NCBI GenBank assembly: GCA_964016885.1
Contig: OZ024741.1
Location: 81,654,001-81,718,000, forward strand
Source: Eledone cirrhosa
Taxonomy: Eukaryota
DNA length: 64,000 bases
Direction: 5' to 3'
Made by a program: the position numbers and the translations under genes. This document shows, one piece after another, positions 18,356-27,313 of this stretch. Within the stretch, counting starts at the first letter, position 1; the number at the start of each line of letters is the position of its first letter. Below the pieces are notes generated by a model. That model was not told where the DNA came from. It did not search any database and saw only the letters and a program-made list of their open reading frames with translations.

Positions 18356-19555
18356 GGAAATACGTTTATTCAAAAGTATAGACCAGCATTAAATATGGTT
18401 TAATATACATTATGTCAACACCATAACATGCTAACCATCCAAACAGACACATACACACACACATAACACCTGCTACTTTAGAAAATAAAAACCCAACTAA
18501 ATAAACCATAACATACGTTTGCGCTGACAATACGAATAAGTAAGGAAAATATGTTCATTCAAAAATATTCCTACTAACGGAATCATTTTCCTACACACAC
18601 ACACACACACACAATATATATATATTCTCTTCATCTTAACATGCTAACCATACTCCCATACTCCCACACACATAACACCCATACACACACATAACAACCC
18701 CCACCCACACACAACTCCCTTCCCCATTTCTACTAATAGAATCACTTTCCTACACACATATATACACACACACAAAATATATATATTCTCTCCATCTTAA
18801 CATACTACCCCCCCCCACACACATAACACCCATACACACACACACACACACAACTCCCTCCCCCATCTCTACTAATAGAATCATCTTCCTATACACACAC
18901 ACACACAAGCACACAAATAAACATACATATCTTTACTTTCTTTATTTCAATAGAAAATCTGAATTCTGACACCCCAGCGAACTAACCATATTCACTGAAC
19001 CAGAACAATTCTCCCATCCCATTTCTCTTGACCATTATCTATTGCTTGTCATAAAATTCTCTTAAAAGGCTACAGAATAAATTTCAAAATACGGGCACGA
19101 AATTTCATGAAAACTTGTTCACGTGACAGCCATAATTTCATTTATAACCAATCAAATTACGTTTATTAAAAAAAGCCTTCGTGAGCCCCTTTTTTTAAGT
19201 AAAAAGAAATTCAAACACTCATATATGAAAAAACAACCTGAGCCCCCCCCCCCCCCCCTCCTTGTTTGAAGAACTTTGTAACGCGAACTGGCGCGAAATT
19301 TATTATAATTATTGACCAACCAATCAAATTACTTCTCTAAAGACCTGGCGTTTCGAGCCACTTTTTTTCCATATAAAACAAGTAATATTCAAAGACCAAC
19401 CAGATGTGAGAAAAACCACAGACCCTCCATCTCAACTCTACTTTTGAAAAGCAGAAGAACTGCGAAACCGTTAAAAGAACCAAATAAATATATATATTTT
19501 TTTAAAAATAAGATTCCAGTTGCATTTTCGATTTCATCTTTTTTTTCTTTATATA
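18356..19555 (+). mobile_element. Heavily 5'-truncated Neptune-like Penelope element (last codons, 3'UTR, pLTR)
   Basis: Starts with GNTFIQKYRPALNMV*, matching the C-termini KENLFLNKFKPKLN and KESHFINKYGPRLN of the two larger PLEs. CA-rich 3'UTR with ~150-bp tandem repeats. Hammerhead-like motif near 19441. Ends in (TA)n. Confidence 0.65.
19438..19477 (+). ncRNA. Minimal hammerhead-like motif, U3-A8 core
   Basis: TTGAAAA, then GCAG aagaa CTGC, then GAAA-CCGT-TA. Helix I is weak and helix III is one change from ACCGGT. Confidence 0.5.
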
Positions 19556-19565
19556 TATATATATA

Positions 19566-20431
19566 TAAAATATTATAAAAAGGAATAATAGATACAATAT
19601 AGCTATTTTTTCTTTAGTCCCGACTGTACAATTTCGCTGGTCACTATGCAAAAATGTTATATCATAGATATGTAACATTGTTGTGAGGTAAGCCAGCTTA
19701 TCAAGAGAGCACCTTTTTTGTCTTTCCTAATCATAGAGTAACACTGGTTAAGGTCGACAACATACAATCTCACATACTTGTGAAAAATATATGTTTATAT
19801 ATACATGTATATGTATGTATACACATATATTTGTATACCTCTCATTACTGTCTCTAACTCCCTCACGGTAGAGTAACCATGGAAGTATAGTGACTGCTTT
19901 CAAGCAAACACTATATACACTTCAAGTCAAACTTACCACCCTTCTGTAGCCTATGTATCATATCAATATCTCCCTCCGCCTTCTGATATATTTTCACTGC
20001 TACAAGGGAGTAATCCCCTTTCTTGACGGGTGTATCACGTGATAGAGTCTCCCTCCGCCTTTCTGAGATTTTCTCGCATGCTACGGACGTATGTAGTTAG
20101 GGCTCTTCCCTGAGGTGCTCTCTTGATAAGCTGGCTTACCTCACAACAATGTTGTATATCTATGATATAACATTTTTGCATAGTGACCAGCGAAACTGTA
20201 CAGTCGGGACTAAAGATAAAATAGGTATATTGTATCTATTATTCCTTTTTATAATATTTTACATAACTCTGATATTGTGTCAATTTAATTATTTCGATTA
20301 TTTTGTCTCTCATAATCATAGAGTAACACTGGTTAAGGTCGACAACATACAATCTCACATACTTGTGAAAAATATATGTTTATATATACATGTATATGTA
20401 TGTATACACATATATTTGTATACCTCTCATT

Positions 20432-20435
<4 letters not shown>
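19566..20435 (+). mobile_element. Non-coding retrozyme-like / non-autonomous Penelope unit
   Basis: 123-bp direct repeats at 19728-19850 and 20313-20435 (period 585). Inverted arms at 19566-19714 and 20113-20261. Internal hammerhead; TA-flanked. Confidence 0.72.
20119..20209 (+). ncRNA. Type I hammerhead ribozyme, U3-A8 core with extended helix II
   Basis: Helix I TCTC/GGGA; TTGATAA at 20123; helix II GCTGG...CCAGC enclosing an AATGTTGTATATC/GATATAACATT stem; GAAA at 20192; palindromic helix III A-CTGTACAG-T; GUC cleavage after 20205. Mirror copy on the minus strand near 19617-19707. Confidence 0.8.
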
Positions 20436-20480
<45 letters not shown>

Positions 20481-26493: not shown

Positions 26494-26879
26494 TTCGGGG
26501 AAGTTTGGTTTACGTGGTGTAGGTGTAAATTTCAGGCCCTTACTTAAAATGTTGATTTGTGTGTTGGTTAGAGGTGTCTTTGAGAGGTTGATTATTTTTG
26601 GTTTCTCCTGAGGGGGGGGGGGGGGATCGAGTATCCTGGTATTTCAGGCTTTTCCCTAAAAAAGGAATGTAGTTTTGTGTGTGATTATATTTTGTTGGTC
26701 TGTTGCGTGTGGGTCTGTAGCTTGTTGTTTCAAGAGGATGAGTGTGATGGTGGGGTGGTATGTGTTGTGGTTGTTGATGAGCAAGGGTTCTGTTGTTGGT
26801 TCATGTGGTCTGGGTGCGTTATTTCTGTGGTACAGAGTGTGTATGTGTGTGTGTATGTATGTGTGTATATGTGTGTATG

Positions 26880-26928
<49 letters not shown>

Positions 26929-27263
26929 ATGTATGTGTGGATGAAGGTATGTGTGTATATATAGGTGTAAGTGCACTAAATCCCTTTCTATCAATCTCCC
27001 CTCCCCTACCGAGCACAGGAAGATATATGTATGTATATTGCTTCCACCCCCTCACTGACCAGCAGCTGGCCTTCTGGCCATTGCTAAATTTGACCTTTAT
27101 AAAATAACCCACACCCCAAATAACTTCTCATTCACTACCAGAAGCAGTCAACGAGTTGCTACCAAGATGAAAACTACTATGAAATCCCACAATGAATTCT
27201 ATACTTGAATTTTCAAATCTCAAATTTTAACTCTTCTTATTATTAATTTTTCTTAATATTAAT

Positions 27264-27313
27264 CAACATTTGAAAAGATGGCTTTTGCAGACCCATCGAA
27301 ACCGGTCATTTTT
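27264..27313 (+). ncRNA. Type I hammerhead, U3-A8 core, in the inverted pLTR of PLE B
   Basis: TTGAAAA at 27270, GATGG/CCATC helix, GAAA at 27298, then CCGG-TC. Confidence 0.68.

What the first reader, a model, noticed from the sequence alone, without database searches (positions are those of the whole stretch)
19438..27313. Recurrent U3-A8 hammerhead cores in several unrelated modules
Seen: three different sequence families have TTGANAA in place of CTGANGA (19444 TTGAAAA; 20123 TTGATAA; 23157-23163 and 27270 TTGAAAA). Each is followed by a paired helix II, GAAA, and a palindromic or near-palindromic helix III (ACCGTT, ACTGTACAGT, ACCGGT). Known: C3-G8 is a tertiary pair in hammerheads, and U3-A8 is an uncommon compensatory variant. 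Palindromic helix III is typical of dimer-dependent PLE hammerheads. Inference: the double change preserves the pair, which argues for function, and standard CUGANGA searches would miss this class. The AT-rich genome may favour it.
Basis: partly seen in the sequence, partly recalled or inferred. Interest (0 to 1): 0.72.

Follow-up and report, generated by a model that had tools for sequence, protein, structure and literature searches.

The report
Known U3-A8 hammerheads in Penelope retroelements
The flagged sites are hammerhead-type RNA motifs at the ends of Penelope-like jumping genes in which a core C-G pair has become U-A; they are predicted, not shown, to cut their own RNA, and this variant is already published, so it is a solid but ordinary example.

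Summary
Observation confirmed. All four cited sites exist. Each is a hammerhead-type motif whose core box reads UUGANAA, so positions 3 and 8 can pair U-A.

The sites are not unrelated modules:
- 23157-23163(-) and 27270(+) lie in the two inverted 530-nt pseudo-LTRs of one Penelope-like element (PLE), whose RT/GIY-YIG frame runs 26643->24394.
- 19444 is the 3' end of a sister PLE family.
- 20123, with a decayed inverted twin, sits in a 585-nt ORF-less, retrozyme-like unit.

Family states are U3-A8: 40/40, 39/39 and 38/38 rows. Genome-wide, one fixed architecture gives 17,930 U3-A8, 98 U3-G8, 87 C3-A8 and 2 C3-G8 matches.

Among 15 PLE-type hammerheads from this genome and from metagenome relatives, the 3-8 pair is C-G in 9 and U-A in 6, never unpaired, and helix II covaries. 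The U-A elements with a readable protein form one clade, so descent rather than recurrence explains most of the pattern. Canonical C3-G8 families (at least 8,216 copies) coexist, so AT-richness is not the cause.

U3-A8 is already published (Perreault 2011; in PLEs, Cervera and de la Pena 2014). This scan met it before in this genome (e1-9516796, e1-9502574). Cleavage is untested, and no RNA run was listed.

The parts
19432..19492 (+). Family A hammerhead-type motif, at the 3' end fragment of a PLE. Core box 19444-19450 (U3-A8). Helix II 19451-19454 with 19460-19463. G12-A14 at 19464-19466. Helix III 19467-19472, a near-palindrome in this copy. H17 at 19473, so the predicted cut is after 19473.
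   Evidence: Searches give the sequence. One search gives 39.4 bits and E 2.4e-6 with my model R1. In one search, 39 of 39 rows keep U3 and A8, and most rows have the full 6-nt palindrome. In one search, a PLE frame lies about 1 kb upstream on the same strand in L090, L091 and L095.
19562..20480 (.). Family B unit: a roughly 585-nt ORF-less repeat. It is present here as a partial tandem (direct repeat 19716-19856 and 20301-20441) plus an inverted 153-nt copy (arms 19562-19714 and 20113-20265).
   Evidence: One search reports I2 at 96% and D11 with spacing 585. One search shows that homology with 29 other loci is confined to about 19550-20480. One search lists only short stop-to-stop frames here, the longest 133 codons, not checked for homology, and one search finds no RT/EN match here. 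One search shows head-to-tail pairs 585-593 nt apart elsewhere in the genome.
20115..20212 (+). Family B hammerhead-type motif. Helix I 20119-20122 with 20206-20209. Core box 20123-20129 (U3-A8). Helix II 20130-20134 with 20187-20191, enclosing a 52-nt insert that folds on as a long hairpin. G12-A14 at 20192-20194. A 10-nt palindromic helix III at 20195-20204. C17 at 20205, so the predicted cut is after 20205.
   Evidence: Searches give the sequence and descriptor hit. In one search, 38 of 38 rows have the U3-A8 box. One search finds 133 exact genome matches against 0 for the control. In one search the predicted dimer MFE forms helix II and the intermolecular helix III.
19615..19712 (-). Inverted twin of the family B motif. 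Its core box ends at 19704 on the - strand. One substitution breaks the helix III palindrome.
23067..23596 (-). 3' pseudo-LTR of the PLE, in sense with the ORF. It is the left arm of the 530-nt inverted repeat, and its inner part is microsatellite.
   Evidence: I1, 94% complementary.
23107..23175 (-). Family C hammerhead-type motif, in sense with the PLE frame and about 1.27 kb downstream of its stop. Core box 23163->23157. The predicted cut is between 23126 and 23125 on the - strand.
   Evidence: One search gives 46.3 bits and E 4.8e-8.
24394..26643 (-). PLE reading frame: 749 codons from stop to stop, with the first ATG only at codon 50. [quoted passage not shown]
   Evidence: One search gives the translation. 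One search finds 583 homologues at E<=1e-10, the best 58% identical over 98% of the query, carrying precomputed RVT_1 and GIY-YIG. In one search that best homologue hits RVT_1 at 8.5e-6 and GIY-YIG at 25.3 bits. The window frame itself gets no RT or GIY-YIG hit from Pfam.
26837..27366 (+). Upstream pseudo-LTR in inverted orientation, the right arm of the inverted repeat.
27258..27326 (+). Family C hammerhead-type motif in the inverted upstream pseudo-LTR. Core box 27270-27276 (U3-A8). Helix II 27277-27281 with 27293-27297. G12-A14 at 27298-27300. A 6-nt palindromic helix III at 27301-27306. C17 at 27307, so the predicted cut is after 27307.
   Evidence: One search gives 46.9 bits and E 3.5e-8. 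In one search, 40 of 40 family rows from 30 loci keep the box. In one search, contigs of runs from three organism labels show no other letter at 27240-27317.
54394..54454 (+). A further U3-A8 motif, a relative of family A with a covaried helix II. It lies 1.1 kb downstream of the PLE frame 50999-53267. Position 13 is C in this copy.
   Evidence: One search gives 35.2 bits. One search shows the same variant in L058. One search lists a copy with the normal GAAA box.
49575..49643 (-). Family E motif, a relative of family C. This copy has G at position 3.
   Evidence: (38.9 bits).
55223..55292 (+). Family E motif, a decayed copy with G at position 3 and a deletion in helix III.
   Evidence: In one search the 32 family rows split as 25 U3-A8, 2 U3-G8, 1 C3-A8, 2 G3-A8 (both from this window) and 2 with the box deleted. 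One search gives 19.7 bits.

Best explanation
The sites are type I hammerhead-ribozyme motifs in the pseudo-LTRs of Penelope-like retroelements and of a small ORF-less derivative. The core C3-G8 pair is replaced by U3-A8. The motifs are predicted, not shown, to cut the element's RNA just after the palindromic helix III.

Shown:
- the motif anatomy at each site;
- the PLE context (RT/GIY-YIG frame, inverted 530-nt arms, ends in microsatellite);
- U3-A8 as the family state in at least five families;
- strict C-G / U-A covariation at positions 3-8, and covariation in helix II, across PLE-type hammerheads;
- a single protein clade for the U-A elements that have a readable frame.

Inferred:
- The RNA folds as a hammerhead.
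- Helix III closes only a 1-bp (or, in family B, 3-bp) hairpin within one molecule, so two copies likely pair through the palindrome to form the active dimer, as proposed for other metazoan PLE hammerheads.
- Cutting in the pseudo-LTRs would trim read-through or tandem transcripts to unit length.
- For the 585-nt unit, cutting would release a monomer that could be circularised and copied by a PLE reverse transcriptase.
For: Anatomy. The U4-G5-A6 and A9 positions, the GAAA box, the A15.1-U16.1 pair and a non-G at position 17 are present at all four cited sites.

Context:
- inverted arms;
- 749-codon frame with visible YLDD, Cys linker and GIY-YIG;
- homologues carrying RVT_1 and GIY-YIG;
- family A motifs about 1 kb downstream of PLE frames that are 56-60% identical to the window's.

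Family states:
- C: 40/40 rows
- A: 39/39 rows
- B: 38/38 rows
- E: 25/32 rows
- G: 58/66 matches

Genome counts for one fixed architecture are 17,930 U3-A8, 98 U3-G8, 87 C3-A8 and 2 C3-G8. The single mutants carry the helix II of the same families.

Covariation on 15 sequences aligned by reference:
- 82.4% of cells are paired, against 54.3 +/- 2.8 in shuffles (0/500 reach the observed value) and 33-43% when partners are slid.
- The covariation score is 0.787 against 0.236 (0/500).
- The 3-8 pair is C-G in 9, U-A in 6 and unpaired in 0.
- Helix II is 95% paired, with changes on both sides at 4 of 4 pairs.

Relatives from elsewhere. In 74 loci, my descriptor left positions 3 and 8 free. It found 10 sense-strand motifs next to the PLE frame, 9 C-G and 1 U-A. 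One more C-G motif was read by eye in L183.

Tree. The in-genome U-A PLE proteins form a clade with support 95/97.

Literature (passages read):
- Natural U3-A8 covariation exists, and such cores were already shown active in vitro (PMC3088659).
- U3-A8 min-hammerheads occur in S. mansoni PLE pseudo-LTRs, small palindromic helix III is typical of PLE hammerheads, and a dimer model is proposed (PMC4209133).
- Inverted 5'-truncated upstream copies, hammerheads within pLTRs and (TA)n insertion bias are typical of PLEs (PMC8557442).
Against: - Cleavage was not tested, and no RNA run was available. Every listed holder is of unknown kind and kept as contigs.
- No Rfam hammerhead model matches, even at E<=10.
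- Helix I is weak in families C and E. It has 2 bp, then a mismatch, then 2 bp. Overall only 63% of helix I cells pair.
- For family C, nearest-neighbour folding prefers a competing helix. The dimer MFE is -24.1 kcal/mol against -18.5 for the hammerhead-type dimer. The monomer MFE is -9.0 against +0.4.
- Helix II and helix III pairing were demanded by the descriptor that picked most of the aligned sequences. Only the 3-8 pair and helix I are unbiased there.
- The five in-genome U-A rows share ancestry, so the 6 U-A rows stand for about two events.
- PLE min-hammerheads cut poorly in vitro (PMC4209133).
- The role of hammerheads in PLEs is called unclear, possibly parasitic (PMC8557442).
- Family B rests on one family only. 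Its diverged variants gave no compensatory change that I could read.
Confidence: 0.78

Rival explanations
1. The motif is conserved in these pseudo-LTRs for a reason other than self-cleavage. It could be a binding or priming site for the element's RT/EN, or a dimerisation signal through the palindrome. The U-A core would then be an inactive relic of a hammerhead.
For: - PLE min-hammerheads have low activity in vitro (PMC4209133, passages).
- PLE clades without canonical hammerheads proliferate well, and the function of the hammerhead is called unclear (PMC8557442, passages).
- Helix I is weak and a competing fold exists in family C.
- One subfamily carries C at the essential position 13.
Against: - The whole catalytic core, not only the helices, is kept across PLE proteins that have diverged to 31-60% identity.
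- The one core change is strictly compensated: 15 of 15 sequences pair at 3-8.
- U3-A8 cores are reported active in vitro in other hammerheads (as cited in PMC3088659).
Confidence: 0.15
2. The boxes are decayed canonical hammerheads. C-to-T and G-to-A changes would have accumulated in dead copies of an AT-rich genome, or the matches would be chance matches in AT-rich DNA.
For: - The window is 38.8% G+C.
- Both changes are transitions.
- Individual window copies are decayed elsewhere in the motif (19471, the - strand copy near 19704, 55223-55292).
Against: - Family consensuses are U3-A8, including a family whose copies are 99% identical.
- C3-G8 forms of this architecture number 2, against 17,930 U3-A8.
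- Shuffles give 0.04 U3-A8 hits per window against 3 observed.
- Canonical families with 8,216 exact copies persist in the same genome.
Confidence: 0.02
3. The U3-A8 core arose several times independently in unrelated repeats, which is the reader's 'recurrent' reading.
For: - One metagenome PLE relative (L184) has U3-A8 and lies outside the in-genome clade, on a long unresolved branch.
- Family B, and a further family seen in L022, have a different helix III and no known protein partner.
Against: - Families A and C, and the PLE frame at 50999-53267, share one protein clade.
- Families C and E share sequence around the motif.
- Descent therefore accounts for most copies.
Confidence: 0.3

Closest known systems
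U3-A8 minimal hammerheads in pseudo-LTRs of Schistosoma mansoni Cercyon PLEs (Cervera and de la Pena 2014, PMC4209133; passages read)
   Same: - The same core covariation.
- The same host element class, and the same place in the pseudo-LTR.
- Many single or oppositely oriented pairs a few hundred bases apart.
- High copy number (about 1,300 hits there).
   Different: - A different animal genome and different PLE lineages.
- Helix III here is a 6- or 10-nt palindrome, whereas the schistosome descriptor has no helix III.
- There is no extra base between A9 and 10.1.
- Counts are more than ten times higher, and U-A outnumbers the canonical families that I counted.
PLE hammerheads with a small palindromic helix III in Drosophila, rotifers, shrimps and mosquitoes (PMC4209133). 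[quoted passage not shown]
   Same: - Type I topology.
- Short helix I.
- G10.1-C11.1 pair.
- Palindromic helix III that implies a dimer.
   Different: As far as the passages I read say, those have the C3-G8 core. I could not see the figures or supplements, which may show further core variants.
Natural U3-A8 covariation in hammerheads (Perreault et al. 2011, PMC3088659; passages read)
   Same: The same compensated core pair, stated there to be active in vitro on the basis of Przybilski and Hammann 2007.
   Different: Those examples come from a general survey across the domains of life, not from PLE pseudo-LTRs.
Metazoan non-LTR retrozymes (Cervera and de la Pena 2020, PMC7229834, passages read; Li et al. 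2026 preprint 10.64898/2026.07.22.740005, abstract and outline only)
   Same: Family B is ORF-less and AT-rich. It carries one type I motif per unit and occurs head-to-tail. It coexists with autonomous PLEs, which are the proposed mobilisers.
   Different: - The unit of about 585 nt is larger than the 170-400 nt reported.
- Mostly one to two units plus an inverted copy are seen, rather than long arrays.
- The core is U3-A8.
- Helix II carries a 52-nt insert.
- Circular RNA has not been shown.
Rfam Hammerhead_1 (RF00163)
   Same: The same ribozyme class. The model does find another family in this genome (18 of 74 scored candidates are over the cut-off).
   Different: It finds no match at any of the sites in question, even at E<=10.

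Membership tests
Hammerhead ribozyme (type I) | Conserved core: U4 G5 A6, A9, G12 A13 A14 | tested here: met
   All are present at 19444, 20123, 23163(-) and 27270. These columns are invariant in the 15-sequence alignment, except G12, which is nearly invariant. The extra copy at 54394 has C at position 13.
Hammerhead ribozyme (type I) | Positions 3 and 8 form a Watson-Crick pair (normally C-G) | tested here: met
   The pair is U-A at all cited sites. Across 15 PLE-type motifs it is C-G in 9, U-A in 6 and unpaired in 0. The descriptor that found the motifs left both positions free.
Hammerhead ribozyme (type I) | Helices I, II and III around the core, supported by covariation | tested here: inconclusive
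   Helix II is 95% paired with changes on both sides at 4 of 4 pairs, but pairing there was demanded by my descriptor. In helix I the proximal two pairs hold in 14/15 and 13/15 sequences, the distal pairs are poor, and 63% of cells pair overall. Helix III is a palindrome that closes only 1-3 bp within one molecule.
Hammerhead ribozyme (type I) | A15.1-U16.1 pair and a non-G at position 17 before the cut | tested here: met
   The pair is A-U in 15 of 15 sequences. Position 17 is A (19473), C (20205) and C (27307).
Hammerhead ribozyme (type I) | Site-specific self-cleavage | not testable with these tools
   No RNA run was listed. Contigs cannot show RNA ends.
Hammerhead ribozyme (type I) | Match to the curated Rfam models | tested here: not met
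   There are no matches at gathering score in the window. None of the 53 matches at E<=10 in 19000-28000 is a hammerhead family.
Penelope-like element, C-terminal EN+ (Neptune/Nematis-like) | A single frame with a reverse transcriptase followed by a GIY-YIG endonuclease | tested here: met
   The YLDD and GIY...YIG boxes can be read in the translation. The best homologue is 58% identical and hits RVT_1 (below Pfam's cut-off) and GIY-YIG (above it). The window frame alone gets no RT or GIY-YIG hit from Pfam.
Penelope-like element, C-terminal EN+ (Neptune/Nematis-like) | Pseudo-LTRs, direct or inverted, often with an inverted 5'-truncated upstream copy | tested here: met
   The window has 530-nt inverted arms. 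Direct pairs 4.9 and 6.5 kb apart, and inverted pairs at many distances, occur elsewhere in the genome. The defining description is from PMC8557442 (passages read).
Penelope-like element, C-terminal EN+ (Neptune/Nematis-like) | Cys-x(2-5)-Cys-x2-Cys linker before GIY-YIG | tested here: met
   A Cys-x4-Cys-x2-Cys stretch can be read upstream of the GIY-YIG box in the translation. Clade placement against named Neptune or Nematis references was not done.
Penelope-like element, C-terminal EN+ (Neptune/Nematis-like) | Hammerhead motif inside the pseudo-LTR | tested here: met
   The motifs lie at 23107-23175(-) and 27258-27326(+), both inside the arms.
Metazoan non-LTR retrozyme (for the 20123 unit) | ORF-less unit of a few hundred bases in head-to-tail repeats, one type I hammerhead per unit | tested here: inconclusive
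   The window holds 1.2 units with period 585 plus an inverted copy. Several head-to-tail pairs 585-593 nt apart are among the 100 listed of 133 matches. No long arrays were seen. The unit is larger than the published 170-400 nt.
Metazoan non-LTR retrozyme (for the 20123 unit) | Expression as linear and circular RNA of unit length | not testable with these tools
   No RNA run was listed.

The most novel reading that the evidence does not exclude
A whole young and very successful clade of Penelope-like elements has fixed U-A in place of the catalytic-core C-G pair of its hammerhead. It counts at least 18,000 intact motifs, more than twice the canonical hammerheads I counted in the same genome. 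The U-A core would then be no crippled rarity. It would be a fully workable, perhaps deliberately slower or more dimer-dependent, setting of the ribozyme that suits this retrotransposition cycle.
Probability: 0.2. Interest if true: 0.5.

Novelty: new member of a known kind. Interest (0 to 1): 0.3.

Why it matters
For annotation, standard hammerhead models and CUGANGA descriptors miss what is, by my counts, the larger share of hammerhead-type motifs in this 3-Gb animal genome. The counts are 17,930 plus 133 U3-A8 matches against 8,216 canonical ones.

For ribozyme biology, the set gives a large natural sample of a compensated change in the catalytic core. Sister families and canonical relatives are at hand for direct kinetic comparison.

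It changes no concept. The variant, its host elements and the dimer model are all in print.

Tried and rejected
- Rfam gave nothing relevant. There were no matches at gathering score. At E<=10 there were only microsatellite-like miRNA matches.
- No RNA holder was listed. The four runs laid are contigs of unknown kind. They show no starts, ends or joints and no other letter at the core positions.
- Pfam on the window's own frames gave no RT or GIY-YIG hit.
- BLAST between the 700-nt surroundings of five families returned only microsatellite matches, so the families cannot be aligned that way.
- A single-protein scan of genome contigs found nothing. The profile scan found two loci.
- Linking family E to the frame at 50999-53267 failed. 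Homology with 29 E loci covers only about 55000-55400. That frame's own motif may therefore be the one at 54394 or the one at 55236.
- Family B loci (3 kb each) hold no PLE frame, so its autonomous partner is unknown.
- The TIR DNA transposon or MITE reading of the inverted arms was rejected because of the RT/GIY-YIG frame and the known PLE arrangement.
- A search for 'C3U' with 'G8A' found no paper.
- PMC5785218 is not held.
- Figures and supplements of the papers were not seen. They may show further core variants in shrimp or mollusc PLEs.
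Full report
**What is there.** Each reads as the first hammerhead box with U at position 3 and A at position 8. Each is followed by a helix II hairpin, the GAAA box, and a palindrome or near-palindrome that begins with A15.1 and ends with U16.1. A non-G base at position 17 comes next. The predicted cut sites are after 19473, 20205 and 27307 on the + strand, and between 23126 and 23125 on the - strand.

**More than chance.** I wrote a descriptor that leaves positions 3 and 8 free. 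It asks for a helix II of at least 4 bp, the GAAA box, a palindrome of at least 6 nt, and then a non-G.
- It finds 3 hits in both strands of the window, all U3-A8.
- In 100 dinucleotide shuffles it finds a mean of 0.4 hits over all 16 base combinations, and 4 U3-A8 hits in total.
- Rfam reports nothing in the window at gathering score. It reports no hammerhead family among 53 matches at E<=10 in 19000-28000.

**What the modules are.**
- *Sites 23163(-) and 27270(+).* These lie in the two arms of a 530-nt inverted repeat that is 94% complementary, at 23067-23596 and 26837-27366. Between the arms a 749-codon frame runs from 26643 to 24394 on the - strand. It has a YLDD box, a Cys-x4-Cys-x2-Cys stretch and a GIY...YIG box.
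- *The frame's identity.* Pfam gives the frame itself no RT or GIY-YIG hit. It has 583 homologues at E<=1e-10 whose precomputed domains are RVT_1 and GIY-YIG. The best homologue is 58% identical over 98% of the query, and it hits both families when scanned. This is a Penelope-like element (PLE) with a C-terminal endonuclease.
- *Orientation.* The - strand motif is in sense, 1.27 kb downstream of the stop. The + strand motif sits in an inverted upstream pseudo-LTR. That arrangement is described as typical of PLEs (PMC8557442, passages read).
- *Site 19444.* This is the 3' end of a second family (A). In other loci the same motif lies about 1 kb downstream of PLE frames that are 56-60% identical to the window's, on the same strand.
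- *Site 20123.* This belongs to a family (B) whose homology with 29 other loci is confined to about 19550-20480. Here it is a partial tandem of period 585 plus an inverted 153-nt copy whose motif has lost its palindrome. No PLE frame lies in its 3-kb loci. Elsewhere, head-to-tail pairs 585-593 nt apart occur. I read it as a non-autonomous, retrozyme-like derivative.
It also finds a relative of A at 54394-54454 and two copies of a relative of C (family E) at 49575-49643(-) and 55223-55292(+). It does not reach family B, whose helix II carries a 52-nt insert.

**Family states and counts.** U3 and A8 are kept in most or all rows of every family examined.

| Family | Rows or matches keeping U3-A8 | Remarks |
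|---|---|---|
| C | 40 of 40 rows | from 30 loci; overlapping loci repeat some copies |
| A | 39 of 39 rows | two rows are the window's own locus |
| B | 38 of 38 rows | |
| E | 25 of 32 rows | older family, about 80% identity; the rest are 2 U3-G8, 1 C3-A8, 2 G3-A8 (the window's own copies) and 2 deletions |
| G | 58 of 66 matches | the rest are 4 U3-G8, 2 C3-A8 and 2 C3-G8 |

I also searched the whole genome for one fixed architecture: box, G, 8-25 bases, C, the GAAA box, and the 6-nt palindrome of families A and C.

| Core state | Exact matches | Reversed control |
|---|---|---|
| U3-A8 | 17,930 | 1 |
| U3-G8 | 98 | 2 |
| C3-A8 | 87 | 3 |
| C3-G8 | 2 | 140 (unexplained) |

The single mutants carry the helix II of the same families, so they are decayed copies. 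These ratios mostly reflect amplification of U-A masters, not selection on each copy.

Family B has 133 exact matches against 0 for the control.

The same genome holds canonical C3-G8 hammerheads in two other families. One is found by RF00163 and has 2,976 exact matches. The other has 5,240 matches, largely in 467-468-nt tandem arrays. A general AT bias therefore does not explain the U-A core. The window is 38.8% G+C.

**Is the pair really compensated?** I fetched PLE relatives from public contigs, giving 74 loci and 229 kb.
- My descriptor gave 14 hits.
- Ten of these lie on the sense strand beside the frame with a G/C-containing or 6-nt palindrome. Nine are C-G and one is U-A (L184).
- I judged the other four to be chance or mis-parsed. 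Three have an A/T-only helix III, two of them inside a frame. The fourth, in L231, is a mis-parse around an inverted canonical motif.
- One more C-G motif was read by eye in L183.

Fifteen motifs, five U-A families and one canonical family from this genome plus nine from the contigs, aligned cleanly by reference. On that alignment:
- the named structure has 82.4% of cells paired, against 54.3 +/- 2.8 in shuffles (0 of 500 reach it) and 33-43% when partners are slid;
- the covariation score is 0.787 against 0.236;
- the 3-8 pair is C-G in 9, U-A in 6 and unpaired in none;
- helix II is 95% paired, with changes on both sides at all four pairs;
- A15.1-U16.1 is invariant;
- helix I holds at its two proximal pairs (14/15 and 13/15) and is poor further out.

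Two caveats apply. Helix II and III pairing was a condition for being picked. The five in-genome U-A rows are related.

A maximum-likelihood tree of the last 311 residues shows this relatedness. It places the window's two PLE frames and two family A frames in one clade with support 95/97. The C-G elements and L184 lie outside, L184 on a long unresolved branch. The U-A state is therefore best read as one inherited change in this clade, with perhaps a second origin in L184.

**How it likely works (inferred).** Within one RNA, helix III can close only one pair around a 4-nt palindromic loop, or three pairs in family B.
- Two copies can form a 6- or 10-bp intermolecular helix III.
- The predicted dimer MFE of families A and B is of that kind.
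- This is the dimer model given for metazoan type I and PLE hammerheads (PMC4209133, passages read).
- Cutting in sense pseudo-LTRs would trim tandem or read-through transcripts to unit length. That role is only hypothesised in the literature (PMC8557442).
- For family B, cutting in successive units would release a roughly 585-nt RNA, as in retrozymes (PMC7229834, passages read).

**Against the reading.**
- No RNA evidence exists here.
- Family C's helix I is 2 bp plus a mismatch plus 2 bp.
- Family C's predicted MFE is a competing helix. The dimer values are -24.1 against -18.5 kcal/mol, and the monomer values are -9.0 against +0.4.
- PLE min-hammerheads cut poorly in vitro (PMC4209133).

**Comparison with what is known.**
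- Perreault et al. 2011 state that C3 and G8 covary to U3 and A8 in several natural hammerheads, and that such cores were already shown active in vitro (PMC3088659, passages read).
- Cervera and de la Pena 2014 report the U3-A8 variant in S. mansoni Cercyon PLE pseudo-LTRs, with about 1,300 hits. They also report small palindromic helix III in PLE hammerheads of flies, rotifers, shrimps and mosquitoes (PMC4209133, passages read).
- Earlier notes of this scan reached the same verdict on other stretches of this genome (e1-9516796, e1-9502574).
- The present case adds a new host genome, a clade-wide fixation with very high copy number, and a formal covariation count. It adds no new kind of element.

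**Verdict.** It is wrong on 'unrelated' and 'recurrent', and wrong on the AT-bias idea. The finding is a new member of a known kind.

Noticed in passing
window 54394-54454 (+); also L058 near 252: A relative of family A has a covaried helix II and the U3-A8 box, but C at the essential position 13. The same change appears in a second locus, while another genomic copy listed has the normal GAAA box. This may be an inactive subfamily.
   Followed up: partly
window 49575-49643 (-) and 55223-55292 (+): Both family E copies that flank the PLE frame 50999-53267 have G at position 3, a mismatch with A8. This would fit two pseudo-LTRs copied from one mutated source. Whether they belong to that frame is unresolved.
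   Followed up: partly
G000 C1:30831845-30840563 and C1:56387566-56396783; L257-L262: A canonical C3-G8 hammerhead family has 5,240 exact motif copies. They form tandem arrays of period 467-468 nt, and runs on one strand abut runs on the other, giving head-to-head array pairs.
   Followed up: no
L031-L040: The family found by Rfam RF00163 has 2,976 exact copies. It ends about 60 nt after the cut site in (TA)n, and often abuts an inverted copy of itself.
   Followed up: no
L022, end of locus, - strand: A further U3-A8 motif has a 5-bp helix II, a 12-nt palindromic helix III and an 8-bp helix I (three G-U pairs). Its family was not examined further.
   Followed up: no
control: The reversed (not complemented) control of the C3-G8 pattern has 140 genome matches, against 2 for the pattern itself. 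Some unrelated repeat must hold that string.
   Followed up: no
window 24394-26643 (-): The PLE frame is open from stop to stop for 749 codons, but has no ATG before codon 50, although homologues align from about residue 13. This copy may lack its start codon.
   Followed up: no
window 27273-27283 with 27304-27314: In family C an 11-bp helix between the end of the core box plus the helix II 5' strand and the U-run after the cut site is the predicted MFE. It competes with the hammerhead fold.
   Followed up: partly
window 21743-22880 (-) and 31779-33121 (-): Two fragments of a second PLE type are only about 25% identical to the other over a short stretch. Neither my descriptor nor model R1 found a hammerhead-type motif downstream of them.
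   Followed up: partly
window 54612-54691 (-): A weak canonical-looking match (C3-G8 box) to model R1, at 20.6 bits and E 0.089, with a 26-nt helix II insert. Its status is uncertain.
   Followed up: no
window 18000-29000: The region is dense in (TA)n, (CA)n and (CT)n arrays, and the element ends abut them. This fits the microsatellite insertion bias described for PLEs.
   Followed up: no
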